From Obrimoposthia wandeli (lineage: Eukaryota): 64,000 nucleotides of DNA. The position numbers and the translations under genes were made by a program. Below are positions 1,729 to 22,624 of this stretch, in pieces; the first letter of the stretch is position 1, and the number at the start of each line of letters is the position of its first letter. The notes beneath the pieces were generated by a model, which saw only the letters and a list, made by a program, of their open reading frames with translations, was not told the origin of the DNA and made no database searches. The DNA lies in assembly GCA_977020255.1 (NCBI GenBank), contig CDROCS010001382.1:868001-932000 (forward strand). The letters are read 5' to 3'.

Positions 1729-2051
1729 TGTTAGGATTAGGTTTTGTTAAAATTAAATAATTAGTTGAATTTATAGTGAATTTATAGTAAAATGAAAATC
1801 CTTGAAAACAAGGTTAAAATTAAATAAAATTTAAATTTAAAATTAAAATGTTAAAAGTAAAAGGAAAATTGAATATTAGAGGACCACGAAGGTCGTGTGA
1901 AATGCGTGAATATATATAATATTAGTTTAAAAAACAAAAGTGCAAAAAAGAAAATTAATTAGAAGATTAACGAAAAGGAAATTAAGAAACGAAGAAAATA
2001 ATCCACGTCGTCAGCCACGTCACCAACAGAAGTAGCAGCTGTTTTCCCGAG

Positions 2052-2096
2052 GTGAGTGGTGACCGGAATTTGCATTAATTAACTTACTAATTTCAG
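2052..2096 (+). other. Predicted 45-nt spliceosomal intron inside the LTR (also 20774-20818)
   Basis: AG|GTGAGT donor, TTACTAAT branch-like motif and TTTCAG| acceptor; identical in both LTRs and close in size to the 43-nt host HPD intron 1. Confidence 0.7.
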
Positions 2097-2412
2097 GACC
2101 GAGAAGCAAGAGGAATCGATTGTCAACTGAGTGACAGACACATACCTGCATAAGCTCTTCAAAATCTACACAGAAATAGACTATATAAGTCTACACTGGA
2201 ATAACCGCAAACCACACACGATCCCCAAAAAAGAAGAGAAGAAGTCATATTATCAAGGAGAAGAAACAGAGTAGACGAATCCACGAATTAAAGGTAAAAG
2301 GAGAAACATCAGCATCACCAAAATTAATACAATACGCGCAGGTCTCGCAGCAACCAGATCTCACTGTCGATATCAACAGCTCAATTCCATTGTTGCAGTT
2401 CAATCGTGCAAG

Positions 2413-2523
2413 TCGCCGCTGCTCAATTCACAGTTGCAGCCCAAGCTCTCAAATTCGCCGCTGCTCAATTCACAGTTGCAGCCCAAGCTCTCAAATTCGC
2501 CGTTGTTCAATTCTACAGTTGCT
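2413..2523 (+). repeat. 42-bp tandem repeat in the LTR (~2.6 copies in 5' LTR, ~1.6 in 3' LTR)
   Basis: Unit tcgccgctgctcaattcacagttgcagcccaagctctcaaat starts at 2413, 2455 and 2497 (partial). Confidence 0.9.
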
Positions 2524-2603
2524 GTCCAGCAGTTCATTTCTGTCTCGCCAATTCGAGAGGACTCATTGATAACCGGAGCAACTAAAGGTATAAATACCGC
2601 AAC

Positions 2604-2958
2604 TTTAAAGGAATTTTGTAACAGTTATTTGAATTTGGAATCATAAATTTAAAGGAATTTTGTAACAATTATTTGAATTTGGAATCATAAATTTAAAGGA
2701 ATTTTGTAACAATTATTTGAATTTGGAATCATAAAATTAAAGGAATTTTGTAACAATTATTTGAATTGGGAATCATAAATTTAAAGGAATTTTGTAACAA
2801 TTATTTGAATTTGGAATCATAAAATTAAAGGAATTTTGTAACAATTATTTGAATTTGGAATCATAAAATTAAAGGAATTTTGTAACAATTATTTTGAATT
2901 GGGAATCATAGATTTAAAGGAATTTTGTAACAATTAATTGAATTGGGAATCATAAATT
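2604..2958 (+). repeat. 44-bp minisatellite in 5' LTR (~8 copies)
   Basis: Unit aaatttaaaggaattttgtaacaattatttgaatttggaatcat with period 44. Confidence 0.95.
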
Positions 2959-3482
2959 GAAAAAGATACTTTGAACCCTAAAATAATCTGTTTTATCAAA
3001 AAGATCTAAACTACCCATAATTTTGAGCAACCAGCTCTAAATTCGTTCCCTATTTTTAGAGCAACCAGCTCTCCAAAATCTGTGCCCTGAGTTTATCCAC
3101 AAGCTAGAGTAAAGACTCAAATAAGCTAACCGACCTTAACGTAAAATCGATACGTGGTTCATCCCCACTTGTGTAGAGACTTACAGAAGTCTTAGGAATT
3201 TTACTACCACTTTTTAGAGAATACGTACGTAAACGTATTGTTGTGTTTAATCTAGTGTGTTAACAATAAACGATTTCCTACATTAGAAAGCATTGTTTTA
3301 AACCCTTCAGATTAAGAGACATCAAAAACAAACACCTTCAGATAAGCAATTGAGACAGGCAACCATAACATTAAGTAGGCCACGATCAACTTTAAGACCT
3401 GCTTCTACAGAACTCACGTTGGGGCCCTCCACATTCAAGAGGATCTATATAAGTTTCATATAGAAACCCCAACATATTAAAG

Positions 3483-3500
3483 TGGTGTCCCGAGTGAGGA
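3483..3500 (+). promoter_or_regulatory. Primer-binding site resembling the complement of the 3' end of elongator tRNA-Met
   Basis: TGGTGTCCCGAGTGAGGA matches at 16/18 the complement of the vertebrate elongator tRNA-Met 3' end (TGGTGCCCCGTGTGAGGA, recalled); it lies 8 nt after the LTR end. Confidence 0.75.
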
Positions 3501-3544: not shown

Positions 3545-3885
3545 TGAGAATAAGTTATTGAAGAAATAAGTAAATTGAGAATAAGTTTCAGAAGAAGAAA
3601 ATATAAGTAAATTGAGAATAAGTTTCAGAAGAAGAAAATATAAGCAAATTGAGAATAAGTTTCAGAAGAAGTAGATATAAACAAATTGAGATAAGATAAT
3701 TGATAAGTTTTGAGAAATCGAGTAGATTTGTTCCTCGAGTTAAGAATTTGATAAGTTTTGAGAAATCGAGTAGATTTGTTCCTCGAGTTAAGAATTTGAT
3801 AAGTTTTGTAAAATCGAGTGGATTTGTTCCTCGAATTGAGTAAATTTGATAAAGTTGAGAATCGAGTGGATTGTTACTCGAGGTA
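3545..3885 (+). repeat. Two tandem-repeat blocks in the 5' leader (~38-bp and ~48-bp units, 3-4 copies each)
   Basis: gagaataagtttcagaagaagaaaatataagtaaatt repeats are followed by gataagttttgagaaatcgagtagatttgttcctcgagttaagaattt repeats. Confidence 0.85.
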
Positions 3886-4342
3886 ATTAATTGAATAGGT
3901 TAAGTCGAGAGACGTGTCCTCGAACTAATAAAAGAGATATAAGAAATCGTAAAATAAGAATTGTGAAATAAGATAAAATAATAAGTAAATTGATATCGTA
4001 AACGAATACATAATTGATAAGACAACGGATAATAGAAAAGGACCCGCGTATAATACTAGAAGACAAAGTCAGATTCCCCAGGAAGAGATAAATAATAATA
4101 AATTTAACCGAATTGAACAGGTTCCCCAAACAGATAACAAAGTAACAGAAAAGACTAGAATCGAAGAAAACGTATCAGAAAGAGACGTTGATCAATCAGC
4201 GGTTTCAACCGACAGTTTTAATTTGACTGAATTATTTGGTGACATAAACCCAGAAGAATTTGAAATTGCCAATCCAGTAGTGATTGAGGAAGTTCAAGTG
4301 AAAAATATTGAAGAAATAGTTGAGGAGGATATAGTTGGAAAT

Positions 4343-6457
4343 ATGGCTCAACCAGGAGCTCAAGCAGATAATAATGCAGGAAATAATGTAGGAGAAATGA
4401 ATGCAGAACAGTTGGCACTAGCCTTAAATGCGACGTTGAGACCCAACTTTTCGGGATCATTGCAGATTACAAAGTTTAAAGGAGATGAGGAAAGTATTTG
4501 TGACTTCCTCGCAGAATATTCGAGTTGTGCAGATGTTCAAGGATGGAACGATAGAGAAAAATGTGTCCGTGTACAGGCACACTTAACCGGATTAGCACTT
4601 GAAGTGTATAAACATTTGACAGAAGTAGAACGTTTAGATTGGGCAACGTTGGAAAATGCTTTTATTGGAAAATTGGTATTGGGAGATTTAGCAAAAGTGA
4701 ATAAGCGAATCATGAGAGAACGGAAACAGAAACATGACGAAGGCGTGAATGAATACGCGTATGTTTTGAGAACCTTGGCCGCAAGAGCGTACCCAAGAAG
4801 AATAATGAGAAATCAGGACGGTATTCCTGTAGCTCCAGAAGCACAAGCAGCGGAAAATAACCGGAACCAAGATGAAATGGCAGAAGTTTTGTTAGACATA
4901 TTTAGAGGAGGACTGAAAAAAGATATTAAAGTGTTATTAGCAGTATCGGACACGAATGATTTTGATAACGCCGTACGAAAGGCGAGAGAGATTGAGAAAA
5001 ATATAAAAAATAACGCAGCAATGGCAATTTACGCAATGACTGCAGGTGATGACGATAAGACAAAGGTATTTGTGAATAAGACAGAACCGAGTAATTTTCA
5101 GAATCGAAATTATGGACAAAATAAGTTTGAAAAAGGAGATGAATCCAGTAACGGAAACAGAGATAATTTCCGAAATAGGAATCGAGATGATTCCAGAGGT
5201 AGAAAAAGTAATGATTCGTGGAATAGAAATAGAGATGATTCCAGGAATAGATTTAGTAGAGATAATTCAGGAAATCGCCAACCGTGGAGAGGAGACGATA
5301 GGAATTATAACGCAAACAGAGGAGAGCGAAGTGACTCTCGATTTGAAAATAATACAGGAAGTAGTGACGGAAGATTCAATAATCGAGGAAGCGGTTATAA
5401 TTCCGATAAAGATATACTTACGGGAATTCTCAGGCAAGTGAAGCCGAAGTTGTTCAAAATGTACAAAGATGAAACAACCGATATAACAGACAATTTGACT
5501 AAAGCAGTCAGATCACAAATGTCTGCAGTAAAGAGAATGACTGCGAATCATGTATACCATGCATCAATAGATAGATTTTATGACGGTGAAGTTTTAGCAA
5601 GATTATGTGGAAACCAGACTACGAATAAAAAGTTGATTACGGCGATCACATATCTATGTTTCCAATTGACGGAACGAACGAGCCAACCTCACGAAGTCAA
5701 ACAAGGAATAAATGAAGCGATGTATTTGATCGAAAATGTATTGCAGAGACGAATCGACGAAAACGGAGGTTGGGCAAAATTAAGTGACTACGCTAAAACC
5801 ATTGTGGAAATGAACGAAGACGATGACGAACAATGTCATGAAAATCGTCAAAGAGAAAATAAACAATACCATTCGAAAGAAAGAAACAATCAACCAAATA
5901 TGTCCACAACAATGATGATGATGATGTTAGTAATGTTCATGGGAATGCAACAGGCATCAGGGTTGATAGCATACGACTGTAGCATACCAAAGATGGGACA
6001 AAAGTATTCACTGCTTGACAGCGAAAACTGTCCAGAATCACAACCGTCAAAATTAGAAGTTAAAGGTGTTGAAAACTACTTTGTGTATCAGGATGTTGAT
6101 AAGATACAAGTAGAAGTGAAAGAATGTTCAGTTCATTCAAGTTATTACGAATTCTATTGTGGCCATATAAGTTTTATGTCGGAAATCACACCTACCACAC
6201 CGTACAAAGTACATAAGGTTTTTTCGAGAGATTGCGAAGACGCATTTCGAACAGGAACAATAGAAATAGACAAGAATTACAAGCCTGATGTAAAAGTTGG
6301 AGTAAGACAATACGAAACAGTCACGAGAGTAGGACAACGATGGCCTGATGGATCGTGTGACGGAGGAACAAAAAAACGTGCGTGGAACCAAAGTAACAGA
6401 GTTAGTAATGGACGTAACTTACAAAATAGAATTAAAAACATGGACCGCCAATTTTGA
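4343..6457 (+). CDS. gag: Polyprotein part 1: Gag (~4343-5008), Arg/Asp/Asn/Ser-rich region (~5090-5407), Bcl-2-like domain (~5411-5800), signal peptide (5900-5962), N-terminal part of class III glycoprotein
   Basis: Retrotransposon capsid-like motifs (KFKGDEESICDFL, GWND, QKHDEGVNEYAYVLRTLAARAYP, FRGGL); RRIDENGGWAKLSDY resembles BH2; MMMMMLVMFMGMQQASG|LIAYDC. First ATG at 4343, but the frame is open from 3989. Confidence 0.85.
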   Translation: MAQPGAQADNNAGNNVGEMNAEQLALALNATLRPNFSGSLQITKFKGDEESICDFLAEYSSCADVQGWNDREKCVRVQAHLTGLALEVYKHLTEVERLDWATLENAFIGKLVLGDLAKVNKRIMRERKQKHDEGVNEYAYVLRTLAARAYPRRIMRNQDGIPVAPEAQAAENNRNQDEMAEVLLDIFRGGLKKDIKVLLAVSDTNDFDNAVRKAREIEKNIKNNAAMAIYAMTAGDDDKTKVFVNKTEPSNFQNRNYGQNKFEKGDESSNGNRDNFRNRNRDDSRGRKSNDSWNRNRDDSRNRFSRDNSGNRQPWRGDDRNYNANRGERSDSRFENNTGSSDGRFNNRGSGYNSDKDILTGILRQVKPKLFKMYKDETTDITDNLTKAVRSQMSAVKRMTANHVYHASIDRFYDGEVLARLCGNQTTNKKLITAITYLCFQLTERTSQPHEVKQGINEAMYLIENVLQRRIDENGGWAKLSDYAKTIVEMNEDDDEQCHENRQRENKQYHSKERNNQPNMSTTMMMMMLVMFMGMQQASGLIAYDCSIPKMGQKYSLLDSENCPESQPSKLEVKGVENYFVYQDVDKIQVEVKECSVHSSYYEFYCGHISFMSEITPTTPYKVHKVFSRDCEDAFRTGTIEIDKNYKPDVKVGVRQYETVTRVGQRWPDGSCDGGTKKRAWNQSNRVSNGRNLQNRIKNMDRQF

Positions 6458-8777
6458 TAAAAAGACACAACGAATGATGAAGTATCCGGAATGTAAAATG
6501 ACAGATGCATCTTGTTTTACAGGTGAATCCACAATTGTGTATCACGTGAATCCGAAACAATGCTCTTTAGTATTTTTGAAAGAAATTAGTTTTAATAAAA
6601 TAAAAGGGTTCCTGTATAATAAAGATGGAGAAGGGTTCCTGTATAATAAAGTTGGAGAAGGATTTCACAATGAAACAAGACCAATTCCTATGACGGCGAC
6701 ACCTACACTGTTAATGGCAACATCAACAGAAGAAGGATTGATATTTATTAAAAAGAGAAATAAAGCACGATGCGGAATGACTGTTAGTACTACAAACTAT
6801 CCTGGAATAGTTTTGTCCAGAGAATTAATAGCATTGGCAGAAACCAAGCTAAAACCTAGAGATATGCAGCTACACACGTATTTTAATAATAAAATTGATT
6901 TTTATTATCATAAAGGATTGATGCAAATGGAACAGTTATATCGGATGATGATCGAGAGAGATTGCCAGCTAAACAAAGAGATCGTAAGAACAAAGTTAGC
7001 ATTAGCTATTACGAATCCAGACATGGTAGCACCATTATTACCCTTGGATGAAGGAGTATTTGCTAAAACCATGGGAGAAGTATTGTATACTTACAAGTGT
7101 AATAAAGTAGAAGAACAGTTGAGAAAAACAAGCCGATGTACGAGTGAATTGGCAGTAACACATTATTTAAAAGAACTCTTTGTTGAACCAATCACGAGAA
7201 TGATACTTCCAAAAGACACTCCAACCAAAGAAATCAGCTGCTCTAATATAATGGCACCTGAATATCAGATGACGAATGATCTATGGATAACGCTACCTGA
7301 CCGAAAGCCAACGAAAACTCCAGAGATGATAAAAATGACGAATCTTAAAGGAAAAATGAAATTCGAAGCGGTAGAAAATATGGAAAATGCAGGTTTGTAC
7401 AATGAGAAAGACTTAAAAGCGGCCTGGAACGAAATAATGTTTCCATTAAAAAGAGCCAGAGTACTTACGGAGATGGTGCAGCGAGCATTACCGCCAGGAG
7501 CTAGATATGTGAATTTTGATATGTTATTATTGCCAAGTCATTTCAAGGAAGCAGCACATCAGACACTTAGAAAGATGTGGGGGAAATTCCTTGTTTTAGG
7601 ACAGTTATTTTCAGGTATCATAGGTATTTATGTTATAATTAAATTTGTGCAGGTAATTATAGCCCAGGTGTTATCTACATATAGTTTATACAGGATAGCC
7701 GGAATCACCTGGCAACTTATAATTGGATGTTTTCCATTTTTAGCGAAATATCTAATGCACCATCATCACGAGAACGAGTTGCGAGCCCTCAAGAAGGAGC
7801 AACATCAAACGAGAACCATGATGCGAGAATCAAGAAACTATCGAGACGACAACGACGACGATAATGATAGTCCAGGAGAATATGCAAAGATACCAGGAAA
7901 ACCAAAAATTCCGTTACCAGATAAGGAAGAAGTGGCGTTAAACCTATATCCAATGAAGGAACTAAAGGAAGAGAAGGAAAATTTTAAGAGAGGCATTTTA
8001 ATGATAAGATGGCCTAAAGTGAGCTACAGTGAGATTCCACAAGCAGAGGAAAAATACAAAAAAGATAATTCCAGAAGAATTCTAAAGTCTAGGATATCCA
8101 ATGAGAATCCAAATGCTCCACCACAAGTAGCAGTAACACTGAACGGAAGAGAATATCTTGCTGAAGTTGATACTGGATCTGCAGTATCAGTACTGAGTAA
8201 AGAAATCTTGTCATCAAAAGAATTAAAGGAAGTATGTCCTAGAAAACAGACATTTGTTAACGTGAATGGTACAGATGTAATGTCAGAAGGAACACTGAAA
8301 TGTTCATTGAATATCGATAGAAGAGCATTGCAGTTAAATGCTAGAATATTCAGAGATTGTGGTAGCCCAGTCATGATTGGGATGGACGTAATAAGGATGT
8401 TTGAAGGAATAATTATATTACCAAATAACAAGAGTTATAAGAACGACAGTTCATTGAGAGAGATAAAAATGTTGAGAGGACCTATAGTCGAAAAGGAAAA
8501 ATACACTATGTTCCGTATGGGAAATCCGTACCAAGATAAGAAACAGGAAGCGCTAGTAAAGTCGATACTTCACTACAAAGATGTAAACTCCGGACCACAA
8601 GCTATGACGAGGAGGAAAATAACATATGTGAATCTGTCAGAAAAGGATCCCATGAGATTCGAGAAAAATAGTCGAAAATCACTAGAACTGTACTATTCAA
8701 AAGAAATGGCACGTAAAATGGCAAGAACAGGATTAGAAATGTTAAAGCGACAAGTAGTTATGGTCATGAGGAAGTAG
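6348..8777 (+). CDS. env: Polyprotein part 2 (after +1 shift at the A7 run 6370-6376): rest of chuvirus-like glycoprotein with TM region (to ~7757), retropepsin 1 (~8124-8420), start of BIR1
   Basis: Motifs recalled from chuvirus G proteins (DCQLNKEIVRTKLALAITNPD, GEVLYTYKC, LFVEPITR, AGLYNEKDL, IMFP, hydrophobic C-terminus); VDTGS at 8166 and IGMDV. Confidence 0.85.
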   Translation: MDRVTEEQKNVRGTKVTELVMDVTYKIELKTWTANFDKKTQRMMKYPECKMTDASCFTGESTIVYHVNPKQCSLVFLKEISFNKIKGFLYNKDGEGFLYNKVGEGFHNETRPIPMTATPTLLMATSTEEGLIFIKKRNKARCGMTVSTTNYPGIVLSRELIALAETKLKPRDMQLHTYFNNKIDFYYHKGLMQMEQLYRMMIERDCQLNKEIVRTKLALAITNPDMVAPLLPLDEGVFAKTMGEVLYTYKCNKVEEQLRKTSRCTSELAVTHYLKELFVEPITRMILPKDTPTKEISCSNIMAPEYQMTNDLWITLPDRKPTKTPEMIKMTNLKGKMKFEAVENMENAGLYNEKDLKAAWNEIMFPLKRARVLTEMVQRALPPGARYVNFDMLLLPSHFKEAAHQTLRKMWGKFLVLGQLFSGIIGIYVIIKFVQVIIAQVLSTYSLYRIAGITWQLIIGCFPFLAKYLMHHHHENELRALKKEQHQTRTMMRESRNYRDDNDDDNDSPGEYAKIPGKPKIPLPDKEEVALNLYPMKELKEEKENFKRGILMIRWPKVSYSEIPQAEEKYKKDNSRRILKSRISNENPNAPPQVAVTLNGREYLAEVDTGSAVSVLSKEILSSKELKEVCPRKQTFVNVNGTDVMSEGTLKCSLNIDRRALQLNARIFRDCGSPVMIGMDVIRMFEGIIILPNNKSYKNDSSLREIKMLRGPIVEKEKYTMFRMGNPYQDKKQEALVKSILHYKDVNSGPQAMTRRKITYVNLSEKDPMRFEKNSRKSLELYYSKEMARKMARTGLEMLKRQVVMVMRK

Positions 8778-9277
8778 AACGATGCGTATGGTGTAGAGTA
8801 AAATTTAGAAAATGGGAGAAGAATGAAAACCTTATGAAACGTCATAAAAGAGATGCACCAAATTGTCCATTTCTCTTGAAACTGAAAACTTCAAACGTAC
8901 CAGAAATCCAAATGGGAAAAGCACCCGATTTCGATTACAGTGACGAGATTCCAAAAGGAGAATCAGCTCTAATAGTAGGCAGAGTAATAACAAATAGCCG
9001 AATTGAAGACATATTCGAAGTTATGCGAGAAGTGAACGAATGTGACGAACAATATCGAGAAGTAACTTTCGAAGATCCAAGACTTAAAAAATTTGCAAAA
9101 AAGGGACTTTTTGCTATAAAAAAGGATGGTAAAGACGTAATTAAATGCCACAAGTGTAAAAAAGAACGAATTATCGACAGATATACTCTTGAGTTACCTA
9201 AGAAAACGTTACATAATGAATTTTGCGAATTTTGTAATTCTAAAAACAAAATAAAGCAAAAAGAACAGAAAACCTAA
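8734..9277 (+). CDS. Polyprotein part 3 (after -1 shift near 8733): BIR1 C-terminal half and BIR2
   Basis: CVWC-x16-H-x6-C (RCVWCRVKFRKWEKNENLMKRHKRDAPNCPFL). Adding one T at ggatt(t)aga restores KMARTGF. Second CHKC-x18-H-x6-C is preceded by FAKKGLF. Confidence 0.85.
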
Positions 9278-12034
9278 TGTATAATCGAATATCAAATCAC
9301 ACGGAAAGAGATTTTGGCTCAACAAGACACACCGGTAGTGTCATTCGTGAGAAGACTATATCCAAAAGAAGCAGAAAGAATCAGAGATTTGGTAGAATTA
9401 AAAATAAAAACTACGCGAAACGGATACGGATCGATTTTTGAATTACTAAAAGATAAAGATGACAGTACAATTGAAACAAAAGAGAAAGAGTACATAAACG
9501 AACTAGAATACGTACTAGAAGATCCGGAATGCGCAGTTTGCATGGTCAACAAAATAGAAGTTGCCTTTTTACCATGCGGACATGTAAGAACATGTCGGAG
9601 ATGTGCGAAGGAAATGGTATCATGTCCAATTTGTAGAAGGATAATAGATCGGCAAGTGGGAAATATTAGATTTCACTATCCAAACAAAGGAAGTGGACCG
9701 ACAGAGTTTAATAATTCGATAAATACAATATACCATATGGGAAATATAAATGGAGCACAGCGACCAGCAGCTATCATTAGAGTAAATAATTTAAGAGTAA
9801 AAGCCTTAATTGATACAGGTGCTGTAGCTTCGATAGTAAGTGAAGATTGTTTGACAGAGGAACAAAAACGAACAATGGCAGAACCAGATGAATTCTTGGT
9901 ATCGGTCAATGGAGACCCTGTAAAAGTGACGGGAATATTACCATGTACATTTATAATTGGACGTAATACGATCACTATACCAGTTAGAATCATGAAAGAA
10001 TGTCCTGAACCTACAATTTTAGGAATGGATGTACTATCACAACTCAAAGGGATAAGTATTGATTTACAAGATCCAAGATTGAAGGATAGCACATCAAACA
10101 GACAAATAAACCAAATTGATGTAATTATAGAAAATCCTATAAAAATCGGTAAAAGATCACAATTTGTCATTCAAGGTCACACATTATCAGAAGATAAAGG
10201 ACCAGTTGTGTTCGAACCATCACGGGATTTCATAGAGAAATACGAATTACCAGTTGTGAGTACAGTATGTCTGATTGAAAACCACAAAATACCAGTTAGA
10301 CAGATGAATACAACAAACAATGACATCCTATTATACAGAGGAATGAGGTTGGGAAAGATAGCACAGATGGAGAATTCCACCGTGTGTGCTATGAAACTCG
10401 ATAAAGATACGAATGATTACGAAGAAATAGTAATCCAATCAGAAAGACTGACAACCAGAGAAAAGAAACAATTACTCGACCTAATACATAAATTTCCGAA
10501 AGTAATTGCAAAAAATCCATATGACATAGGAGAAACACCTGTCATAAAACACACAATACCGCTGACAGAAGACAAAGTAGTCAGAAGAAGACCATATCGA
10601 GTACCATTACAGTTACACGACGAAGTCAAAAGCCAGATCGAAGATATGTCTAAAACAGGAGTAATTAGACCGAGTTTTTCACCATTCTCAGCACCTGTAG
10701 TGTTGGTAAAAAAGAAGGATGGGAAAATGAGATTATGTATAGATTTCAGAGAACTGAACAAGATCACAAGAAAAGATGTGTATCCATTACCTAGAATCGA
10801 AGAGATGCTCGATAAATTGGGTAATTCAGATTATTTTACGACATTGGATTTGCAGAGTGGATACTGGCAAATCGAGATAGAGGAAGAGGATAAACACAAA
10901 ACAGCCTTTTCCTGCGGAGATGGACTATACGAATGCGAAAAGATGCCATTCGGACTGACAGGAGCGCCAGCAACATTTCAGCGTTGCATGAATTTTGTAC
11001 TCGCATCGTGTGCAAACACGATGGTTTATATCGATGACATAATAATATTTTCGAAAACGTTCGAAGAACATTTAAAAAATCTTGAAGTTGTATTTAAAAG
11101 ACTGGAAAACGCTAAATTAAAAGTTAAACCTACAAAATGCGAATGGGCTAAAGAGCGAGTAACATTTTTAGGACATCTAGTATCGAAAGAAGGCATCCGA
11201 CCTGATCCAGCAAAGATCGAGAAAGTAAAAGCGCATTTAGCGCCAAAGACTGTTAAGGAAATACAAAGTTTTTTAGGTCTTGCAAACTATTATAGACGAT
11301 TTGTTGAACATTTTTCAGATATAGCAACACCATTGAGAAAGTTGACGAGGAAAGATGAGAAGTTCATATGGGGAAAGGAAGCACAACAAGCGTTCGAACA
11401 TTTGAAAGAAAGACTGATAAAAGCACCAATATTAGCGTTTCCAGATATAAACCGACAATTCATACTTATGACAGATGCAAGTAACTATGCTGTAGGAGCA
11501 GTATTGGGACAAGAGGATGACGAAGGAAGAGAACACGTCATCGCGTATGCGAGTAGAGGATTAAACAGAGCCGAAAGAGGATACTCTGTTATTGAAAAGG
11601 AATGTCTAGCCATAGTGTATTCATGTAGACAGTACAGACACTACTTGCTAGGACAAAAAGTATTACTATATACAGATCACAAACCACTACAGTTCTTATA
11701 TAAACACAGAGACGAGATGAGTAGATTAAATAGATGGTTTCTAAAATTGGCCGAATTTGACCTAGAGATCCTTTATAGAACCGGAAAGTCGAATGGCAAC
11801 GCAGATTGTTTGTCGAGGTTGACAAATGTAGACGAGAAAGGAAACATAATTCCAGAAGAAGAACAAGATGAAACCAACGACCAAAAAGGAAAAGCAAATC
11901 TATTAACGATTTTGCTGAAGACGGGTAAAATAGACAAAGATATCATCAAAGAACAGAAAGAAGATGAAGAACTGAGTCTAATCAAAGAACTGTTGGTGAA
12001 AGGAGATCTAAACGATGAAATGACGAAAAAATAA
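9278..12034 (+). CDS. pol: Polyprotein part 4: UBA-like domain, IAP-type RING (~9527-9650), retropepsin 2 (~9767-10060), reverse transcriptase, RNase H
   Basis: CAVC...LPCGH..C..C....CPICR; LIDTGA; LCIDFRELN, DLQSGYWQI, MPFGL..APATFQ, YIDD; TDAS, EKECLAI, TDHKPL, NADCLSR. Same frame as part 3, separated only by TAA at 9275. Confidence 0.95.
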   Translation, partial: CIIEYQITRKEILAQQDTPVVSFVRRLYPKEAERIRDLVELKIKTTRNGYGSIFELLKDKDDSTIETKEKEYINELEYVLEDPECAVCMVNKIEVAFLPCGHVRTCRRCAKEMVSCPICRRIIDRQVGNIRFHYPNKGSGPTEFNNSINTIYHMGNINGAQRPAAIIRVNNLRVKALIDTGAVASIVSEDCLTEEQKRTMAEPDEFLVSVNGDPVKVTGILPCTFIIGRNTITIPVRIMKECPEPTILGMDVLSQLKGISIDLQDPRLKDSTSNRQINQIDVIIENPIKIGKRSQFVIQGHTLSEDKGPVVFEPSRDFIEKYELPVVSTVCLIENHKIPVRQMNTTNNDILLYRGMRLGKIAQMENSTVCAMKLDKDTNDYEEIVIQSERLTTREKKQLLDLIHKFPKVIAKNPYDIGETPVIKHTIPLTEDKVVRRRPYRVPLQLHDEVKSQIEDMSKTGVIRPSFSPFSAPVVLVKKKDGKMRLCIDFRELNKITRKDVYPLPRIEEMLDKLGNSDYFTTLDLQSGYWQIEIEEEDKHKTAFSCGDGLYECEKMPFGLTGAPATFQRCMNFVLASCANTMVYIDDIIIFSKTFEEHLKNLEVVFKRLENAKLKVKPTKCEWAKERVTFLGHLVSKEGIRPDPAKIEKVKAHLAPKTVKEIQSFLGLANYYRRFVEHFSDIATPLRKLTRKDEKFIWGKEAQQAFEHLKERLIKAPILAFPDINRQFILMTDASNYAVGAVLGQEDDEGREHVIAYASRGLNRAERGYSVIEKECLAIVYSCRQYRHYLLGQKVLLYTDHKPLQFLYKHRDEMSRLNRWFLKLAEFDLEILYRTGKSNGNADCLSRLTNVDEKGNIIPEEEQDETNDQKGKANLLTILLKTGKIDKDIIKEQKEDEELSLIKELLVKGDLNDEMTKK

Positions 12035-13909
12035 TCGATAAAAGAAGGAATCTTGTATATTGTCAACAATGTCGGAAAGATAGTAGTAGTAATTCCGAAG
12101 TCATTGAAAACAGCAGTGATGATCCAGTATCACGATGGAACACTAGGAGGACATCTGTCAGGACGAAAGACAATAGCCAGAATCAAAGAGAAGTACCATT
12201 GGGATGGTATGGAAGACGACATAAAACAATGGTGTAAACAATGTAAAGTATGTTTAACCAGAAAAGACACTGGAACTCGTACTAAAGTTCCACTGAAACC
12301 AATGCCAGTTCCTTTGGCACCAATGGAATTCACAGCGATGGATATATTGGGACCATTGAGAGAATCAAGTAAAGGAAACAAGTACGTCATAGTATTTACG
12401 GACTACATGACGAGATGGGTAGAAGCATACCCCATGCAAAATCAGAAGGCTGAAACAATAGCGCAGATCTTAGTGGAAGAGATAATATTTCGATACGGAG
12501 TGCCTAGAAAGTTGTTAACAGATCAAGGAAAGAACTTCACTGGAGAAGTAATAAAAGCAGTATCGAAGATATTCGGAATCATGAAGTTACAAACTTCACC
12601 ATATCACCCACAAACCAATGGTCTAGTAGAAAGGTTTAATAAAACTTTATGTATGATGGTACAATCCTATTGCTCAGACAAACAAGAGGATTGGGATAAA
12701 TATTTACCTTCATGTTTATATGCTTACAGGAATTCAGTTCGAGAGGCGACGGGTCACACACCATTATATCTGATGTATCTCAGACAGAACAATATGCCAA
12801 TGGATCTGGAGTGGACCGAACCAACATCTCAATATTTAGAAACTGAACAATACATTGTCGTCATGAAAGAAAGATTACAAGATGCTTGGACCAAAGCCGG
12901 ATTGAAGTTGAAATTCAATCAAGAAGGTTACAAGGAACAATATGACAAAAAGGCAAAACCACATGAATTTAGAGTCGGAGATCAAGTGATGATATTTTAT
13001 CCAGTCATCGAACCAGGTCTATCGTTTAAACTTCATAGACCATACAAAGGCCCATACAAGGTGATACAGACAACCTCAACGAACTTGAAAGTAATCAACG
13101 AGGAAAATCGGAACAAGGAACCGATGATTGTACATGCAAATCGATGTAAATTAGTACCAAATAAAGATAACGCGTCACGATATGAGTTAAGATCACAAAA
13201 TTTGAAGCCGAATACCAATACCATTAAACTTACACGAATGGTAAGTGATCGGAACTACATAAACATGATGACAAGTGGTAGCGAGGAAAAACCAGCGAGA
13301 ATTGGTATGCTCAGAGTGAAGCACCAAAAGGAAAAAGAAGTAATCCGACACATCGCACCACAAGAAGACATAATAGTTGTTTTCGAAAAAACACAACCAA
13401 CAGATGTGGCGAAAGAAGTCATTGTGAAAGATGCACTAACAAACGAATTTCTGTGCGAACTTAGAGTATCATACTACGACGGAAATACACTAGTCGCAGC
13501 ACTACATCAAAACTCCAATGTGTTTACGACTGAGAAAGTGATAATCGAAATCACATTGACACCAAACATAGTTGCATGGCAGAACTATGACAGTACTGAA
13601 GCAGGACTAGCCAGTCAGGAAGAAAAGGAACCGGCCGGTGGTCACATACTGCATGGTACACCAAAAAGACTCAAACAAGAATACCACGATGTGATAATGG
13701 TATTACGTAATTCACATGAGAGAAGAGATATAATGAGAGTTCATTTAATCGACGCTGACACTGAAAAGATAATCTGTCAGATGGACACCAAATACTTTGA
13801 CGGAAAGACCATTGTATGTAGTATACCGGAATCTCACCGGTTAAACACAGATCAAACGGAAGTATCTGTAAGGTTGAGCGTAATAGAAGGATTTCATTCG
13901 CCAACCTAA
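12035..13909 (+). CDS. pol: Polyprotein part 5: integrase (HHCC, DDE core, GPY) plus two copies of a beta-rich repeat domain
   Basis: YHDG..GGH...C..C, MDILGP, TDQGKNF, PYHPQTNGLVERFN, YKGPYKV; repeats carry Y(Y/F)DG.T. In frame across TAA at 12032. Confidence 0.93.
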   Translation, partial: SIKEGILYIVNNVGKIVVVIPKSLKTAVMIQYHDGTLGGHLSGRKTIARIKEKYHWDGMEDDIKQWCKQCKVCLTRKDTGTRTKVPLKPMPVPLAPMEFTAMDILGPLRESSKGNKYVIVFTDYMTRWVEAYPMQNQKAETIAQILVEEIIFRYGVPRKLLTDQGKNFTGEVIKAVSKIFGIMKLQTSPYHPQTNGLVERFNKTLCMMVQSYCSDKQEDWDKYLPSCLYAYRNSVREATGHTPLYLMYLRQNNMPMDLEWTEPTSQYLETEQYIVVMKERLQDAWTKAGLKLKFNQEGYKEQYDKKAKPHEFRVGDQVMIFYPVIEPGLSFKLHRPYKGPYKVIQTTSTNLKVINEENRNKEPMIVHANRCKLVPNKDNASRYELRSQNLKPNTNTIKLTRMVSDRNYINMMTSGSEEKPARIGMLRVKHQKEKEVIRHIAPQEDIIVVFEKTQPTDVAKEVIVKDALTNEFLCELRVSYYDGNTLVAALHQNSNVFTTEKVIIEITLTPNIVAWQNYDSTEAGLASQEEKEPAGGHILHGTPKRLKQEYHDVIMVLRNSHERRDIMRVHLIDADTEKIICQMDTKYFDGKTIVCSIPESHRLNTDQTEVSVRLSVIEGFHSPT

Positions 13910-14722: not shown

Positions 14723-17700
14723 AGACTAAAACTTGAAGAGTCAGAATTAATGCCACCAATGAGTGAGATCATTCCAGGTAAGTTATACCTCGGAAATGTG
14801 GAAGATGCAACAGACGAAAAGAAACTGTCGGAACAAGGGATAACATACGTGATCAACGTTACAATGAATCACAAATCACAATATCAGACGATCAGAGCCA
14901 TGATGTTAAGAGTAAAAGACTCAATGGAAGCTAACCTTCTCGAATGGTTCGTAGAAACAAACGAGATACTTCACAGAGAACTCCAAAACCAAGGAAAAGT
15001 GTTGGTACATTGTCAGAAAGGAATCTCCCGATCAGCAACCCTAGTATTAGCGTATCTAATAAAGACTAGACGAATGCAGGTACTAGAAGCGTTGAAATAC
15101 CTACAGGAAAGAAGAAGTATCGCGAACCCAAACCTTAATTTTTTGGGACAATTGTCAAATTATCAACTCCTGTTGCAAGAACAGAGACGGATGGACGACA
15201 TCCCTGAGGATCCAAAGGAAAAGAATTTCCTCCAAGCACTATCGTTGACCGGGTTATTCTTAGCCGGAGTCGACAAAATTACGCAGATAATGCCAAAAGT
15301 ATTTTTATGTTATCCAGGAGATATAGATACTGCTGGATTAAAGTTCCACAGTATCAACCGAGTAATTAATATTGTTGAAGTCGGAAATGAGATAATCAGT
15401 CTGTGTCAAAATACTGAAGATGACACAACTCGATACATACATGCTTCCAATCGAGAGATAAATGATGCACAACAACATCTGATGAAATTGACTCAAACCA
15501 TTCAAGCCGAAGTCACAGAAGGAAACGGCGTTCTGATATATCAGAAAAAAGGTACAATGTTAGCTCCAACCATAGGTGTATCCTTGTTGGTAGAGTACCA
15601 TGGTCATACACCAGAAGAAGCGATGGTTTATATCAAACAGAATAGACCAGACACGGAATTCAAACCGTTACTCGTTCGAGAAATAGATAAATATTCCGAA
15701 AAGAGGAAGCAACAACAAGAAACAAATGAAGCTACCACAACAGTGCCCAGCTATCAATACCAAAGATTGCTAGCACTAGGCTTGTTAAGTTGTCTAATGC
15801 CGATAACGGGAGCACAAGAGATAGGCTCCAACCACGGAAATAGTTCATGGTTCACAGAAATCAACAACTACATCATACAGTACCATACACCAGCACTGAT
15901 GATGCTATTAGTGTTGTTAGGACTAATTGATGTGTGGGTTATCCGAAAATGTCTCCGATCCATGAGAACCGACAGTAAAAGATTCCAGTTTGTGAAAATG
16001 AAGAGACCAAATGGACCAACGAACCAAGTACTTGTGTATCTAGACGAAAGGATCGAGGATAACATAGTAAATGTAGCGATATTCTATCCACAAAACAGAG
16101 TACTGAATCAATTCCGAATAGATTACGAAGCTGACCGACAGCGCACACTTGACCGAATATCAGCAACATTCGCCGAATGCAAGCGAAGAAAACGAATTGT
16201 AAAGGAAATACAAAAAGATGCGGATAAAAAAGGTCCGACGTATATATTCGACGGCGATGTCATCAAAACACGTGAGTATGGAAGTAAGAGAGTGATAATT
16301 GAAACGATGGAAGAACATAAAAAATGTTTGTCCGCCAAAAATGGATTCGGAAAGTTGATGATACAAGGTAAACAGGTACAGTTGATTATCGGAAAAACTG
16401 GAATCGAAGAAATGTCAGAACAACGACAGACAACAAAACGACCTAACCAGAAACAGATATCTCTCAAACGAATGATAATTAAAACCCTTTGCAAAAGGAC
16501 AATCAAGGCCCTGTGCACCGTTGCACAAGGATTGATCTACGGAGTAGTAATTGGATTGGTACTACAAGCCATGCCAACCAGTAAAGCTGAATTGATGACA
16601 CTATCCGAATATAATTTACATTTGAGAAATCTAGACAACACCCTAGAAATAATCAAGACGTCCCACAGTAAAGCCGTGATGATCATGTGTGTGAAAGGAT
16701 GTCCAGGACGAATGTGTATAGTCCCAGCGACCGAAATGAAAACACTTAATGGACATTATAGAGTTAGTGTTGTTACATGTGAAGATTACACATTTAGACA
16801 AACTAAAATAGTACTTCTCAGTGACATGTCCAACCAAAGTGTACATAAATTTAAAATATTAACCATCAAGAGCAAAGGGATACCAGCAATACGTTATGGT
16901 ATTCTAGAATTGGTTAATCCAATACTGGCATTGATCATTGGATTTATAATATTAATATTACTCATCTTGTTTTGTTGTACAAAGATAGAGTTGAGATCAA
17001 AAAAGAAACGTCATGATCTCGCAAGACAAACAGGTCAAATGAATTTACAAAAATTCAACACAAGTATACCAAGACCAGCATTCCTAAATGAACCAGCACC
17101 AGAGTACCAGCCAACGATATATGAACATATCGAGGAAAGACCGTACTATATGAGTAACTTGAGTTGTTCCAGAGAAGTTCCTGAGTTTCGGAACCGGACG
17201 ATCATAGGAATCATGCTGATCATACAAATTACCACGACCAAGGCTAGTTATGAGATCATGATCAGTAAATGGAGACAAGATACAATACGGGCGTTATACA
17301 TAGAAATTCCCCTATTAAAAACAAATCACGTAGTAGACATTCACCTACAGACGTCAGCAACCGACAATGTCGATCAGAAATTGTATGTCATCCGACAGGT
17401 CAGAATAAAGATCGACCAACGTACACCTTACTACCGACTGATATTATTCTATCATGAAAGGGTGTTATACCTACGGATAACGATATCAAAGAGGAAACGG
17501 ATTATTCAAAGTATCCGAACAAAGTCAATAATATTGCCTAGAGATGAGCGCATCTGGAAAGTTGTCGACAGGATTATGATCACAGGTAGACGACGTAAAA
17601 CCGTATGGAATTCCGTTAGAATATTTTTCAGATTGTTAGAAACCGACCATGCAACAGTGGCGTGTCCCAATCCAGATGGTGGAATCAGATTTGAATTGCA

Positions 17701-18911: not shown

Positions 18912-18971
18912 ACATCGCACAACCACCAGTCCTCAATCGAGCCCAAATTCAACATTAACCCTCTCACAGTA

Positions 18972-19277
18972 ATGTCTGGAGAATGTTCCATCTGCTACGA
19001 GAACATCGTGGACCTCTACACCAAACCCAACAACTGCAACCACCAGTTCCACATCGAATGCCTCGAGACGTGGATCCCAATAGCCAACAACAACAATCCC
19101 CTCGACTACCCAAACTGCCCGATGTGCAGAGCAACCTTCTCGGTGCACTACGTCTACAACCGGGACAGCCTCCAAGCAGTGGTACCCATTGTACACTGTT
19201 GGAAAAACATCTGCGACTGCTGGTGTTCGTTCTACGTGGAGGAGCGACGCACAGGCCAGCCCAACACCCAGCAGTAA
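18972..19277 (+). CDS. Small RING-H2 protein 2 (101 aa), paralog of protein 1
   Basis: CSIC...CNHQFHIEC..W...CPMC and shared C-terminal CWKN..CWC; acceptor TTAACCCTCTCACAG ends 2 nt before the ATG. Confidence 0.85.
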   Translation: MSGECSICYENIVDLYTKPNNCNHQFHIECLETWIPIANNNNPLDYPNCPMCRATFSVHYVYNRDSLQAVVPIVHCWKNICDCWCSFYVEERRTGQPNTQQ

Positions 19278-19628
19278 CCGAAGGTAACTTTCTGACTTAA
19301 AACGTGACATCATGAACTACCCCTGTGTATCGCATACCGCGATAAATTAGCTACCATAATTGTAATCATAATTGTATAATCTTGTGAAACTGTAAAATGA
19401 CCATTACCATTTTTATGTATGTTGTTTATTTGAAATTGTAATTATTATACTGAAACAAAAGACAATTTTTATGCTTAGTATAAATGTGAAAAAACATGCC
19501 TAAAATCGGAACAAAACTCGGTAGGATTAAAATACTAAGGTTTATAATATTGAAACTAAAATATTAATTGCGTAAATTAATGTTAAAACCAATCGAACCC
19601 AAATTAAAAAAGTAATTATTTTGTGCAG

Positions 19629-20141
19629 ATGATTTGTTCAATTTGCCTCGAGAAGATCTGGGCAACGTCGGCATCCCCTGTCGGTTGTCGACAGAAATTC
19701 CACGAGTCCTGCATCTACTTGTGGGCCAGAGCTCGACTCCCCGGCCACATCACCTGCCCGATGTGCCGGGCACCCTTTACCGAGTGGACGCTCCAGTGCC
19801 GTGGACGACTCATGGGCACCCGCTCGCCCACCAGCTGCATTGGTGGCGAGCACTGTCAGTGCTCCATATGCCTCGCGCGCCGTCGCGACGCACGGCTCTC
19901 CATCCGAGAGAGGTGGCGATCCAGCCACGACAGCCACTCGTGGCAGCATAACCGACAAATGTGGCTCCAAAACCACAATTTGTACAGATCAGACACCGAC
20001 CTGTTTCGCCCAAGCCCACACCTCAGCATCGCACAGCAGATGGCCCTATTCCTGGAAGACACCCCATCCTTCCCGGACTTGCCACTGGAGCAAGTCCTGT
20101 TCTTCTTGGACGACCGAAACACGCCGGACGTGGACAATTAA
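19629..20141 (+). CDS. RING-H2-variant protein 3 (170 aa), GC-rich
   Basis: CSIC...CRQKFHESC..W...CPMC (first His replaced by Gln) plus C-x4-HCQCSIC; acceptor TTATTTTGTGCAG directly precedes the ATG. Confidence 0.8.
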   Translation: MICSICLEKIWATSASPVGCRQKFHESCIYLWARARLPGHITCPMCRAPFTEWTLQCRGRLMGTRSPTSCIGGEHCQCSICLARRRDARLSIRERWRSSHDSHSWQHNRQMWLQNHNLYRSDTDLFRPSPHLSIAQQMALFLEDTPSFPDLPLEQVLFFLDDRNTPDVDN

Positions 20142-20450: not shown

Positions 20451-22624
20451 TGTTAGGATTAGGTTTTGTTAAAATTAAATAATTAGTTGAATTTATAGTG
20501 AATTTATAGTAAAATGAAAATCCTTGAAAACAAGGTTAAAATTAAATAAAATTAAAATTTAGAATTAAAATGTTAAAAGTAAAAGGAAAATTGAATATTA
20601 GAGGACCACGAAGGTCGTGTGAAATGCGTGAATATATATAATATTAGTTTAAAAAACAAAAGTGCAAAAAAGAAAATTAATTAGAAGATTAACGAAAAGG
20701 AAATTAAGAAACGAAGAAAATAATCCACGTCGTCAGCCACGTCACTAACAGAAGTAGCAGCTGTTTTCCTGAGGTGAGTGGTGACCGGAATTTGCATTAA
20801 TTAACTTACTAATTTCAGGACCGAGAAGCAAGAGGAATCGATTGTCAACTGAGTGACAGACACATACCTGCATAAGCTCTTCAAAATCTACACAGAAATA
20901 AGCAAGAGGAATCGATTGTCAACTGAGTGACAGACACATACCTGCATAAGCTCTTCAAAATCTACACAGAAATAGACTATATAAGTCTACACTGGAATAA
21001 CCGCAAACCACACACGATCCCCAAAAAAGAAGAGAAGAAGTCATATTATCAAGGAGAAGAAACAGAGTAGACGAATCCACGAATTAAAGGTAAAAGGAGA
21101 AACATCAGCATCACCAAAATTAATACAATACGCGCAGGTCTCGCAGCAACCAGATCTCACTGTCGATATCAACAGCTCAATTCCACTGTTGCAGTTCAAT
21201 CGTGCAAGTCGCCGCTGCTCAATTCACAGTTGCAGCCCAAGCTCTCAAATTCGCCGTTGTTCAATTCCACAGTTGCTGTCCAGCAGTTCATTTCTGTCTC
21301 GCCAATTCGAGAGGACTCATTGATAACTGGAGCAACTAAAGGTATAAATACCGCAACTTTAAAGGAATTTTGTAACAGTTATTTGAATTTGGAATCATAA
21401 ATTTAAAGGAATTTTGTAACAATTATTTGAATTTGGAATCATAAATTTAAAGGAATTTTGTAACAGTTATTTGAATTTGGAATCATAAAATTAAAGGAAT
21501 TTTGTAACAATTATTTGCATTGGGAATCATAAATTTAAAGGAATTCTGTAACAATTATTTGCATTGGGAATCATAAATTTAAAGGAATTCTGTAACAATT
21601 ATTTGAATTGGGAATCATAAATTTAAAGGAATTTTGTAACAGTTATTTGAATTTGGAATCATAAATTTAAAGGAATTTTGTAACAATTATTTGAATTGGG
21701 AATCATAAATTTAAAGGAATTTTGTAACAATTATTTGCATTGGGAATCATAAATTTAAAGGAATTCTGTAACAATTATTTGAATTGGGAATCATAAATTT
21801 AAAGGAATTTTGTAACAGTTATTTGAATTTGGAATCATAAATTTAAAGGAATTTTGTAACAATTATTTGAATTGGGAATCATAAATTTAAAGGAATTTTG
21901 TAACAATTATTTGAATTTGGAATCATCAAATTAAAGGAATTTTGTAACAATTATTTGAATTGGGAATCATAAATTTAAAGGAATTTTGTAACAATTATTT
22001 GAATTTGGAATCATCAAATTAAAGGAATTTTGTAACAATTATTTTGAATTGGGAATCATAGATTTAAAGGAATTTTGTAACAATTAATTGAAATGGGAAT
22101 CATAAATTGAAAAAGATACTTTGAACCCTAAAATAATCTGTTTTATCAAAAAGATCTAAACTACCCATAATTTTGAGCAACCAGCTCTAAATTCGTTCCC
22201 TATTTTTAGAGCAACCAGCTCTCCAAAATCTGTGCCCTGAGTTTATCCACAAGCTAGAGTAAAGACTCAAATAAGCTAACCGACCTTAACGTAAAATCGA
22301 TACGTGGTTCATCCCCACTTGTGTAGAGACTTACAGAAGTCTTAGGAATTTTACTACCACTTTTTAGAGAATACGTACGTAAACGTATTGTTGTGTTTAA
22401 TCTAGTGTGTTAACAATAAACGATTTCCTACATTAGAAAGCGTTGTTTTAAACCCTTCAGATTAAGAGACATCAAAAACAAACACCTTCAGATAAGCAAT
22501 TGAGACAGGCAACCATAACATTAAGTAGGCCACGACCAACTTTAAGACCTGCTTCTACAGAACTCACGTTGGGGCCCTCCACATTCAAGAGGATCTATAT
22601 AAGTTTCATATAGAAACCCCAACA
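20451..22624 (+). repeat. 3' LTR (2,174 bp)
   Basis: Same termini as the 5' LTR; about 10 substitutions counted by eye outside the arrays; carries a 74-bp duplication (20827-20900/20901-20974), ~17 copies of the 44-bp unit and one fewer 42-bp unit. Confidence 0.97.
21358..22107 (+). repeat. 44-bp minisatellite in 3' LTR (~17 copies)
   Basis: Same unit as 2604-2958, with variants ttgcattggg and gaattctgta seen only here. Confidence 0.95.

What the first reader, a model, noticed from the sequence alone, without database searches (positions are those of the whole stretch)
8660..9650. A complete IAP (BIR-BIR-UBA-RING) inside Gag-Pol
Seen: BIR1 with exact C-x2-C-x16-H-x6-C, divergent BIR2, DTPVV...LVELKIKTT..Y.SIFELL and an IAP-type RING. 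Known: the middle segment resembles the cIAP/XIAP UBA; baculovirus IAPs are BIR-BIR-RING. Inference: a captured IAP that, with the Bcl-2-like domain, could block both caspase and mitochondrial death pathways.
Basis: partly seen in the sequence, partly recalled or inferred. Interest (0 to 1): 0.82.

Follow-up and report, generated by a model that had tools for sequence, protein, structure and literature searches.

The report
Retrotransposon-borne IAP shared with Mavericks
This giant retrotransposon, likely of a planarian, carries a cell-death-inhibitor (IAP) gene inside its polyprotein, a known feature of Burro elements and broken in this copy; the same gene lineage also sits in two Maverick DNA transposon families and likely comes from an intron-containing host gene found in the same genome.

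Summary
The IAP is real, but it is not complete in this copy and not new. The window holds a 20.9-kb Gypsy element (gag, Bcl-2-like, fusion env, protease, IAP, protease, RT, RH, IN, phosphatase). It matches the published planarian Burro elements, whose BIR-RING 'B-IAP' is reported to protect stem cells. Here BIR1 is frameshifted and a stop follows BIR2. Other natural copies carry the IAP in one frame of up to 4,985 aa. BIR1 and RING pass Pfam; BIR2 is a divergent BIR; the UBA is supported only through relatives. Across 88 copies, shared IAP variants are constrained (dN/dS 0.27, RING 0.04) and private ones nearly neutral (0.88). Two high-copy Maverick families carry an intronless IAP of this lineage as a stand-alone gene. 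One IAP-free relative lacks the whole protease-1 + IAP block. Trees group the three mobile IAPs apart from the host gene (88/96), but independent captures are not rejected. The primary B-IAP paper could not be read.

The parts
1729..3474 (+). 5' LTR (TG...CA), with a 44-nt tandem array; 4-bp target duplication CTCT on both sides of the element
   Evidence: 1,689 of 1,704 aligned bases identical to the 3' LTR; 1,334 of 1,343 outside the array
3989..5396 (+). gag region; ends at a deletion of about 2 kb private to this copy (other copies carry a zinc knuckle and a ubiquitin-like domain there)
   Evidence: Retrotrans_gag E 0.031; none of the other 39 of 40 scored hits spans the junction
5585..5773 (+). 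Bcl-2-like segment (weak)
   Evidence: Pfam Bcl-2 E 0.04, below cut-off; no Bcl-2 match
5909..7853 (+). env: Monjiviricetes-type fusion glycoprotein inside the polyprotein; frameshift near 6372 in this copy
   Evidence: PF24664 E 1.8e-18 and 1.6e-69
8127..8396 (+). aspartyl protease 1 (extra; absent with the IAP from an IAP-free relative)
8655..8866 (+). BIR1, canonical zinc spacing, broken by a frameshift near 8741-8744 in this copy
9035..9226 (+). BIR2-like domain, spacing C-x2-C-x18-H-x3-C, shared with the host gene and Maverick family B
9275..9277 (+). in-frame stop in this copy, between BIR2 and the UBA-like segment
9308..9451 (+). UBA-like helical segment (homology by way of relatives; no MGF motif)
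9530..9682 (+). IAP-type C3HC4 RING and tail, ending in Tyr-Pro just past the point where the stand-alone relatives stop
9776..10042 (+). aspartyl protease 2 (matches the single protease of the IAP-free relative)
10706..11758 (+). reverse transcriptase and RNase H
12092..13150 (+). integrase (H2C2, rve, C-terminal); stop at 12032 just upstream in this copy
14783..15700 (+). dual-specificity phosphatase domains (two stretches), in the same long frame in unbroken copies
   Evidence: DSPc E 6.8e-41
18960..20141 (+). two small RING ORFs before the 3' LTR
20451..22624 (+). 3' LTR

Best explanation
This is a broken copy of a high-copy Burro-like Gypsy element whose polyprotein contains an intronless IAP (BIR, divergent BIR, UBA-like, RING), likely captured as spliced cDNA from a host gene, likely cut free by the flanking proteases, and predicted to act mainly as a RING ubiquitin ligase that keeps element-expressing cells alive. 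Shown: the architecture; the single long frame in other copies; purifying selection on shared variants, strongest on RING and the UBA-like segment; a spliced host gene of the same lineage; intronless stand-alone copies in two Maverick families; and one relative lacking both protease 1 and the IAP. Inferred: capture through an RNA step (from intron loss); insertion of protease 1 and IAP as one block; release at the Tyr-Pro behind the RING, which would give a free C-terminus near that of the stand-alone relatives (recalled: retroviral proteases cut aromatic-Pro bonds, and IAP RINGs need a free tail to dimerise); and the anti-death effect (by analogy with Burro1 B-IAP). This copy is predicted to make no full IAP.
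For: Domains: best PDB match cIAP1 3T6P, E 4.7e-15; pLDDT 80.5, four folded units. One frame: open frames of 4,722 and 4,985 aa with Bcl-2-like, env, PR, BIR, RING, PR, RT, IN, DSP in order. Selection in 88 distinct copies of 90 loci: IAP shared variants 46 syn / 35 nonsyn (0.27), private 76 / 186 (0.88), Fisher p 9e-6; RING 0.04, UBA-like 0.09, BIR2 0.20, BIR1 0.51; PR1, PR2 and RT 65 / 0. Host gene at G000:C2454:245350-230264 (-): five exon frames with GT-AG borders and the same BIR2 spacing. All of these form one clade against 16 other animal IAPs at 100/100. The IAP-free relative jumps from env to a protease matching PR2 (37%, E 9e-20), with no PR1 match at that place. The window's Tyr and Pro after the RING are kept in 87 and 85 of 88 copies. 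Literature: PMC6431247, PMC13465017.
Against: No expression, cleavage, ligase or survival data were obtained. BIR1 has Arg just before the zinc His, as in the first BIR of fish cIAP (P0066) and unlike its BIR2 and BIR3, so direct caspase or IBM binding is doubtful (BIR typing partly recalled); BIR1 is also the least constrained domain (0.51). The UBA-like segment scores within shuffles on its own and lacks MGF. The 61-row alignment set BIR2 against host BIRs, so the model leans to that fold; a 6-row alignment did not fold (pLDDT 37). The copies were the top-ranked hits of three searches, not a random sample. The IAP-free relative is a single decayed copy, so loss there is possible.
Confidence: 0.72

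Rival explanations
1. Origin: one capture from the host, then passage between element classes. An intronless IAP moved between the LTR element and Mavericks; the LTR side, which has RT, is the likelier first captor.
For: The three mobile IAPs group apart from the host gene and P0007: 88/96, and 87/90 with P0051. LTR+host is rejected (AU p 0.038), as is Mavericks+P0007 (0.027). Of 223 full columns, 11 are shared only by the three mobile IAPs. Mavericks have no RT, yet their IAP is intronless. A 15.5-kb IAP-bearing Maverick is nested in the env of an LTR copy at C25.
Against: The bootstrap is under 95. Mavericks+host+P0007 is not rejected (AU p 0.11), nor LTR+host+P0007 (0.053). Eight columns support Mavericks+host+P0007. 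Without the host gene, the LTR copy's place was unresolved. Fast, compositionally odd branches may attract. Nesting is expected by chance at these copy numbers.
Confidence: 0.5
2. Origin: independent captures. The LTR element and the Maverick ancestor each took a retrocopy of the same host IAP at different times.
For: Not rejected. The mobile IAPs are only 32% identical to each other. P0008 and P0013 fall outside host+mobile, which may mark further captures. IAP capture recurs in adintoviruses (PMC8502044) and in many viruses.
Against: The best trees group the mobile IAPs. They share motifs absent from host and P0007 after BIR1 and before and after the RING.
Confidence: 0.4
3. Function: the IAP serves the element, not cell survival. 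It would ubiquitinate an antiviral or silencing factor, or polyprotein products, alongside the phosphatase, ubiquitin-like and extra RING cargo.
For: RING and UBA-like are the most constrained parts and BIR1 the least. BIR1 lacks some groove residues. Other cargo is ubiquitin- and signalling-related.
Against: The Burro1 homologue is reported to protect stem cells from caspase-mediated apoptosis (cited in PMC13465017). The two roles need not exclude each other.
Confidence: 0.2
4. One reading: the IAP and an active Bcl-2 together block both caspase and mitochondrial death pathways.
For: Both domains lie in one frame in unbroken copies. A BCL2-like motif is noted in Burro-2, -3 and -4 (PMC6431247). 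There is a weak Pfam hit.
Against: The Bcl-2 hit is far below cut-off, with no Bcl-2 match. No functional data were seen for it.
Confidence: 0.3
5. The IAP is a neutral passenger.
For: 21 of 87 copies have a stop or deletion frameshift in it, and private variants are near neutral.
Against: The same decay affects PR and RT (private 1.05). Shared variants are constrained (RING 8 syn / 1 nonsyn).
Confidence: 0.04

Closest known systems
Burro / GYPSM1 giant Gypsy elements of planarians (Jurka 2007 and Grohme et al. 2018, as described in PMC6431247 section 7, read in full)
   Same: About 5,000-aa polyprotein; gag with CCHC knuckle, ubiquitin-like, BCL2-like, mononegavirus-type env in frame between gag and pol, BIR, PR-RT-RH-IN; thousands of copies.
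   Different: About 21-23 kb rather than over 30 kb. No MATH/TRAF or ankyrin hit in the parts scanned. It has two proteases around the IAP, dual-specificity phosphatase domains and small RING ORFs, none mentioned in that section. Two copies have a stop between gag and the long frame. Burro1 itself was not available for alignment.
Burro1 B-IAP (Lee et al. 2026 Dev Cell; not held, known from passages of PMC13465017)
   Same: BIR plus RING region inside a planarian giant Gypsy element; family reported from Geoplanidae and Dugesiidae.
   Different: Resolved here as BIR, divergent BIR, UBA-like, RING, with a spliced host counterpart and Maverick-borne sisters. Whether that paper reports these could not be checked.
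Adintovirus / Maverick accessory IAP and Bcl2 genes (PMC8502044, one passage)
   Same: Mavericks carrying an IAP as a stand-alone accessory gene.
   Different: Here the same IAP lineage is also in an LTR polyprotein of the same genome, and the host gene is identified.
cIAP1/XIAP/DIAP and baculovirus IAP3
   Same: BIR(s), UBA and a C-terminal RING; best PDB match 3T6P; best viral folds are baculovirus IAPs.
   Different: A separate clade (100/100). BIR2 spacing is altered, there is no MGF and no CARD, and it is embedded in a polyprotein. Baculovirus IAPs were not in the trees.

Membership tests
Ty3/Gypsy LTR retrotransposon | LTRs with TG...CA ends, target duplication, order PR-RT-RH-IN | tested here: met
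Burro-like element | One ~5,000-aa polyprotein with a fusion env in frame between gag and pol | tested here: met
   4,722- and 4,985-aa frames in other copies; PF24664. In those two copies gag is separated by one in-frame stop.
Burro-like element | BIR, BCL2-like and ubiquitin/SUMO-like cargo | tested here: met
   BIR strong; Bcl-2 E 0.04 and ubiquitin E 0.022 are weak but in the published order
Burro-like element | Total length over 30 kb; MATH/TRAF and ankyrin domains (Burro1) | tested here: not met
   20.9 kb here, plus about 2 kb deleted; no such Pfam hits. Hence Burro-like, not Burro1.
Burro-like element | Sequence kinship to Burro1-4 (RT tree) | not testable with these tools
RING-containing IAP | At least one BIR with C-x2-C-x16-H-x6-C | tested here: met
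   (ligands kept in 30, 30, 30 and 29 of 30 copies)
RING-containing IAP | C-terminal C3HC4 RING with a free tail | tested here: inconclusive
   RING met; the tail runs on into protease 2, so freedom depends on an inferred cleavage
RING-containing IAP | Second BIR | tested here: met
   divergent: 11.4 bits against best shuffle 6.0; R, G and three Cys columns at least 90% conserved in a 61-row alignment; canonical His position lost
cIAP/XIAP UBA | UBA profile match and MGF ubiquitin-binding motif | tested here: inconclusive
   3.4 bits, within shuffles; relatives 13.9 and 37.3; confident helical model not searched alone; MGF absent; PF21290 rang nowhere, controls included
RING-containing IAP | Caspase/IBM binding, E3 activity, inhibition of death | not testable with these tools
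   needs bench assays
Bcl-2 family | Bcl-2 profile above cut-off, BH motifs | tested here: inconclusive
   14.9 bits against cut-off 31.4; two searches gave no Bcl-2 match; not folded
Maverick/Polinton (neighbours of the stand-alone IAPs) | TIRs, A32 ATPase, rve integrase, jelly-roll capsid, protein-primed PolB | tested here: met
   Family A: ~600-bp TIRs around ~15 kb with the IAP inside, at 2 of 2 loci; A32, rve, DJR. Family B: A32, rve, DNA_pol_B_2; TIRs not tested.

The most novel reading that the evidence does not exclude
A planarian host IAP was retro-captured once and then passed between an LTR retroelement and Maverick DNA transposons. Three of the genome's most abundant mobile families now carry it, at thousands of candidate places against one host gene found, so cell survival is a shared currency of unrelated selfish elements.
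Probability: 0.45. Interest if true: 0.72.

Novelty: new member of a known kind. Interest (0 to 1): 0.45.

Why it matters
The finding as stated is published biology (Burro B-IAP). The additions could matter. (1) They give the B-IAP story a traceable donor and route: a spliced host gene, intron loss, and a protease-IAP block absent from a relative. (2) If Burro's IAP helps stem cells, the Maverick-borne sister genes (about 1,750 and 3,000 first-look candidates, against about 3,400 for the LTR family; not copy numbers) may do so too, and they would confound knock-down work in species that have them. (3) A spliced RING-IAP in a probable flatworm qualifies the statement that RING-IAPs were lost in platyhelminthes (PMC13159474). 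(4) Gene passage between class I and class II elements in one animal genome becomes testable with more planarian genomes.

Tried and rejected
Protein searches: the search for homologous proteins gave nothing for P0002 ('longer') or alignment A1; P0007 returned only general animal IAPs. No genomic context was found for P0007, P0008 or P0051 (viral scans 65, 92, 93; metagenome scans 87, 97). Alignment A2 found three viral contigs, with weak matches only; L103 is a large-DNA-virus contig with generic IAPs. The first fold failed (pLDDT 37). The fold searches mostly covered BIR1 and RING, so the UBA fold was not tested alone. No RNA holder was listed. My working idea that the host lacks a RING-IAP (searches returned only survivin, a BRUCE-like exon and mobile copies among scored hits) was overturned. 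The C25 415-aa ORF, first taken for a host gene, is a Maverick copy with an internal duplication. A regex for the BIR2 spacing was unspecific, since canonical BIRs match it through a second His, and is not used as evidence on its own. The PF21290 genome search rang nowhere. No dUTPase hit appeared between PR2 and RT in Pfam. Earlier-findings look-ups were empty. Lee et al. 2026 and Grohme et al. 2018 were not held, so neither text nor supplements were seen; they may bear on every novelty claim here.

Full report
Verdict. The IAP is real and under selection at family level. It is broken in this copy, and it belongs to a published system, the planarian Burro elements and their B-IAP. What I add is a host donor gene, Maverick-borne sisters and a likely insertion route.

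The element. Window 1729-22624 is one LTR element with LTRs 99.3% identical outside a tandem array and a 4-bp target duplication. Pfam on 11 ORFs gives gag (weak), a Monjiviricetes fusion protein, a protease, BIR, RING, a second protease, RT, RNase H, integrase, dual-specificity phosphatase and small RING ORFs. The IAP DNA has 3,367 first-look candidates in the 1.35-Gb genome; the 40 scored are 97-100% identical. The host is inferred to be a planarian from this architecture and the AT-rich flanks; no call names it.

Check of the observation. BIR1 has the exact spacing at 8783-8866 and the RING lies at 9530-9634. The frame changes inside BIR1 near 8741-8744, and there is a stop at 9275. Further lesions are a frameshift in env, stops at 12032, 13907 and 14720, and a ~2-kb deletion after gag that none of the other 39 scored hits shares. 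The neighbouring copy on the same contig breaks frame at the same place in BIR1, which argues against a random read error. The IAP is unbroken in 20 of 30 copies, and 21 of 87 have a stop or deletion frameshift, insertions not counted. Two copies hold Bcl-2-like, env, PR, BIR, RING, PR, RT, IN and DSP in single frames of 4,722 and 4,985 aa.

Domains, tested on a natural unbroken copy (P0002). BIR1 and RING pass Pfam cut-offs; the best PDB sequence is cIAP1 BIR3-UBA-CARD-RING, with a 3.2-bit UBA stretch. A profile from 434 host BIR segments scores BIR2 at 11.4 bits (best of 1,000 shuffles 6.0). A UBA profile scores it 3.4 bits (best shuffle 3.9), against 13.9 for Maverick B and 37.3 for P0007. 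AlphaFold gave pLDDT 37 with 6 rows and 80.5 with 61 rows, with four folded units; that alignment favours a BIR fold for BIR2. Fold searches returned IAPs, mostly through BIR1 and RING. The Bcl-2-like segment is weak (E 0.04) and unsupported.

Selection. I used 88 distinct copies of 90 loci (2 duplicates dropped), taken from the top hits. Only single-base codon changes were counted; private means 1 copy, shared means 5 or more; a transition weight of 3 was assumed. IAP private 76 syn / 186 nonsyn (0.88), shared 46 / 35 (0.27), p 9e-6. By domain, shared: RING 0.04, UBA-like 0.09, BIR2 0.20, linker 0.31, BIR1 0.51. Both proteases and RT together: 65 / 0. Inserted copies decay, while the propagating lineages kept the IAP.

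Literature. PMC6431247 (section 7 read in full) describes Burro elements with a ~5,000-aa ORF, BIR, BCL2-like, ubiquitin-like and env in frame between gag and pol. PMC13465017 (passages) cites Lee et al. 2026 for a Burro1 B-IAP region (RING and BIR) that protects stem cells from caspase-mediated apoptosis. That paper and Grohme 2018 were not held. I recall that its abstract calls the protein host-derived; this is recall only. PMC8532177, PMC10680173 and PMC11410931 (passages) add nothing on the IAP.

Mavericks. A BIR search of the genome (12,110 candidates, 150 scored, 30 loci read) gave survivin, a BRUCE-like exon and 28 loci of a stand-alone IAP related to the element's. These are 32% identical to P0002 over the whole length (E 8e-45 and 5e-44). 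Fourteen of the 28 have the packaging-ATPase motif within the 3-kb locus. Longer stretches show A32 ATPase, rve-chromo integrase, jelly-roll capsid and protein-primed PolB. Family A is a ~15-kb unit with ~600-bp TIRs and the IAP inside, at 2 of 2 loci; one sits inside the env of an LTR copy. Family A has lost most of BIR2; family B keeps it. First-look candidates are 1,752 and 2,973. IAPs in adintoviruses are known (PMC8502044, one passage), and Maverick expansion in Dugesia is reported without mention of IAP (10.64898/2025.12.11.693146, passages). Searches listed no paper that evidently links planarian Maverick and Burro IAPs; I read passages of only some of the listed papers, and the primary paper is unseen.

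Host gene. A RING search (17,080 candidates, 150 scored, 30 read) gave one short exon with the lineage's tail. Upstream, on C2454, lie exon frames for both halves of BIR1, the end of BIR2 with the same C-x2-C-x18-H-x3-C spacing, the UBA-like segment and the RING, over 15 kb with GT-AG borders. The exon for the start of BIR2 was not found. Its closest relative is P0007 (117 of 283 identical). PMC13159474 (passages) states that RING-IAPs were lost in platyhelminthes; this gene is a probable exception.

Trees. Without the host gene, 46 rows: the LTR, Maverick and four unnamed proteins form one clade at 100/98. Placing the LTR IAP with vertebrate and lophotrochozoan IAPs is rejected (p 6e-5), and the inner order is open (20 of 46 rows left out). 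With the host gene, 24 rows: clade 100/100, mobile IAPs plus P0051 87/90. With 15 of those 24 rows: mobile IAPs 88/96; AU p for LTR+host 0.038, Mavericks+P0007 0.027, LTR+host+P0007 0.053, Mavericks+host+P0007 0.11, Mavericks+host 0.13. Site patterns in 223 columns are 11 for mobile-only, 8 for Mavericks+host+P0007, 1 for LTR+host+P0007 and 10 for LTR+P0008. Exchange between elements is favoured but not shown. No flatworm host IAP from a named species and no baculovirus IAP was in the trees.

Route of entry. A decayed, related env-bearing Gypsy on C2454 (33-51% identical over most segments) runs from env straight to one protease, which matches PR2 (37%, E 9e-20); PR1 has no match at that place. 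About 640 residues, PR1 plus IAP, are missing there. PR1 and PR2 share 28 of 99 residues. Block insertion is the simplest reading, from one copy.

Mechanism. Stand-alone relatives end 13-29 residues after the last RING cysteine. The polyprotein has Tyr-Pro at +15/+16, kept in 87 and 85 of 88 copies, a plausible protease site (recalled specificity). With RING the most constrained part and BIR1 carrying Arg before its His, as in fish cIAP BIR1, I favour a released E3 ligase over a direct caspase blocker. Expression, cleavage, ligase activity and survival effect are all untested here.

Score. The stated finding is known. A new Burro-like family with a traced donor and Maverick sisters is of moderate interest: 0.45.

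Noticed in passing
G000:C2454:245350-230264 (-), L178-L180: Spliced host BIR-BIR-UBA-RING IAP in a probable flatworm, against the reported loss of RING-IAPs in platyhelminthes (PMC13159474).
   Followed up: partly
G000:C25:323030-338546 (L146-L147): Maverick with TIRs nested in the env of an LTR-element copy; its IAP has an internal duplication of the UBA-RING part, and a TBP-like ORF lies just upstream (PF00352 E 2.9e-13).
   Followed up: partly
window 14783-15700: Two dual-specificity phosphatase stretches in the polyprotein after integrase, followed by ~900 residues with hydrophobic segments and no good Pfam match; not mentioned in the Burro review section read.
   Followed up: no
G000:C197 and C1883 copies (L136-L141): Both have the same in-frame TGA between gag and the long ORF: either a subfamily lesion or a read-through signal.
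   Followed up: no
window 18960-19277 and 19608-20141: Two small, GC-richer RING ORFs before the 3' LTR, unrelated in look to the IAP RING.
   Followed up: no
window 2600-2960 and 21350-22100: 44-nt tandem array inside both LTRs, with different copy numbers; further short arrays at 3560-3843.
   Followed up: no
window 3483-3500: PBS-like sequence starting TGG, 8 bases after the 5' LTR; tRNA not identified.
   Followed up: no
G000:C2454:252153-262740 (-): Decayed env-bearing Gypsy with one protease and no IAP, about 7 kb upstream of the host IAP exons found.
   Followed up: partly
P0008, P0013, P0051: Unnamed stand-alone IAPs of the same lineage on short metagenome contigs; context not found; may be further mobile copies.
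   Followed up: partly
window 58145-59755 (-) and 46185-46844 (+): 536-aa ORF with an N-terminal RING and helical region, and an ORF with a DDAH/arginine deiminase-like stretch; outside the element.
   Followed up: no
L103 (IMGVR_UViG_3300010885_091098): Large-DNA-virus contig with two tandem generic IAP genes beside topoisomerase II; not of this lineage.
   Followed up: no
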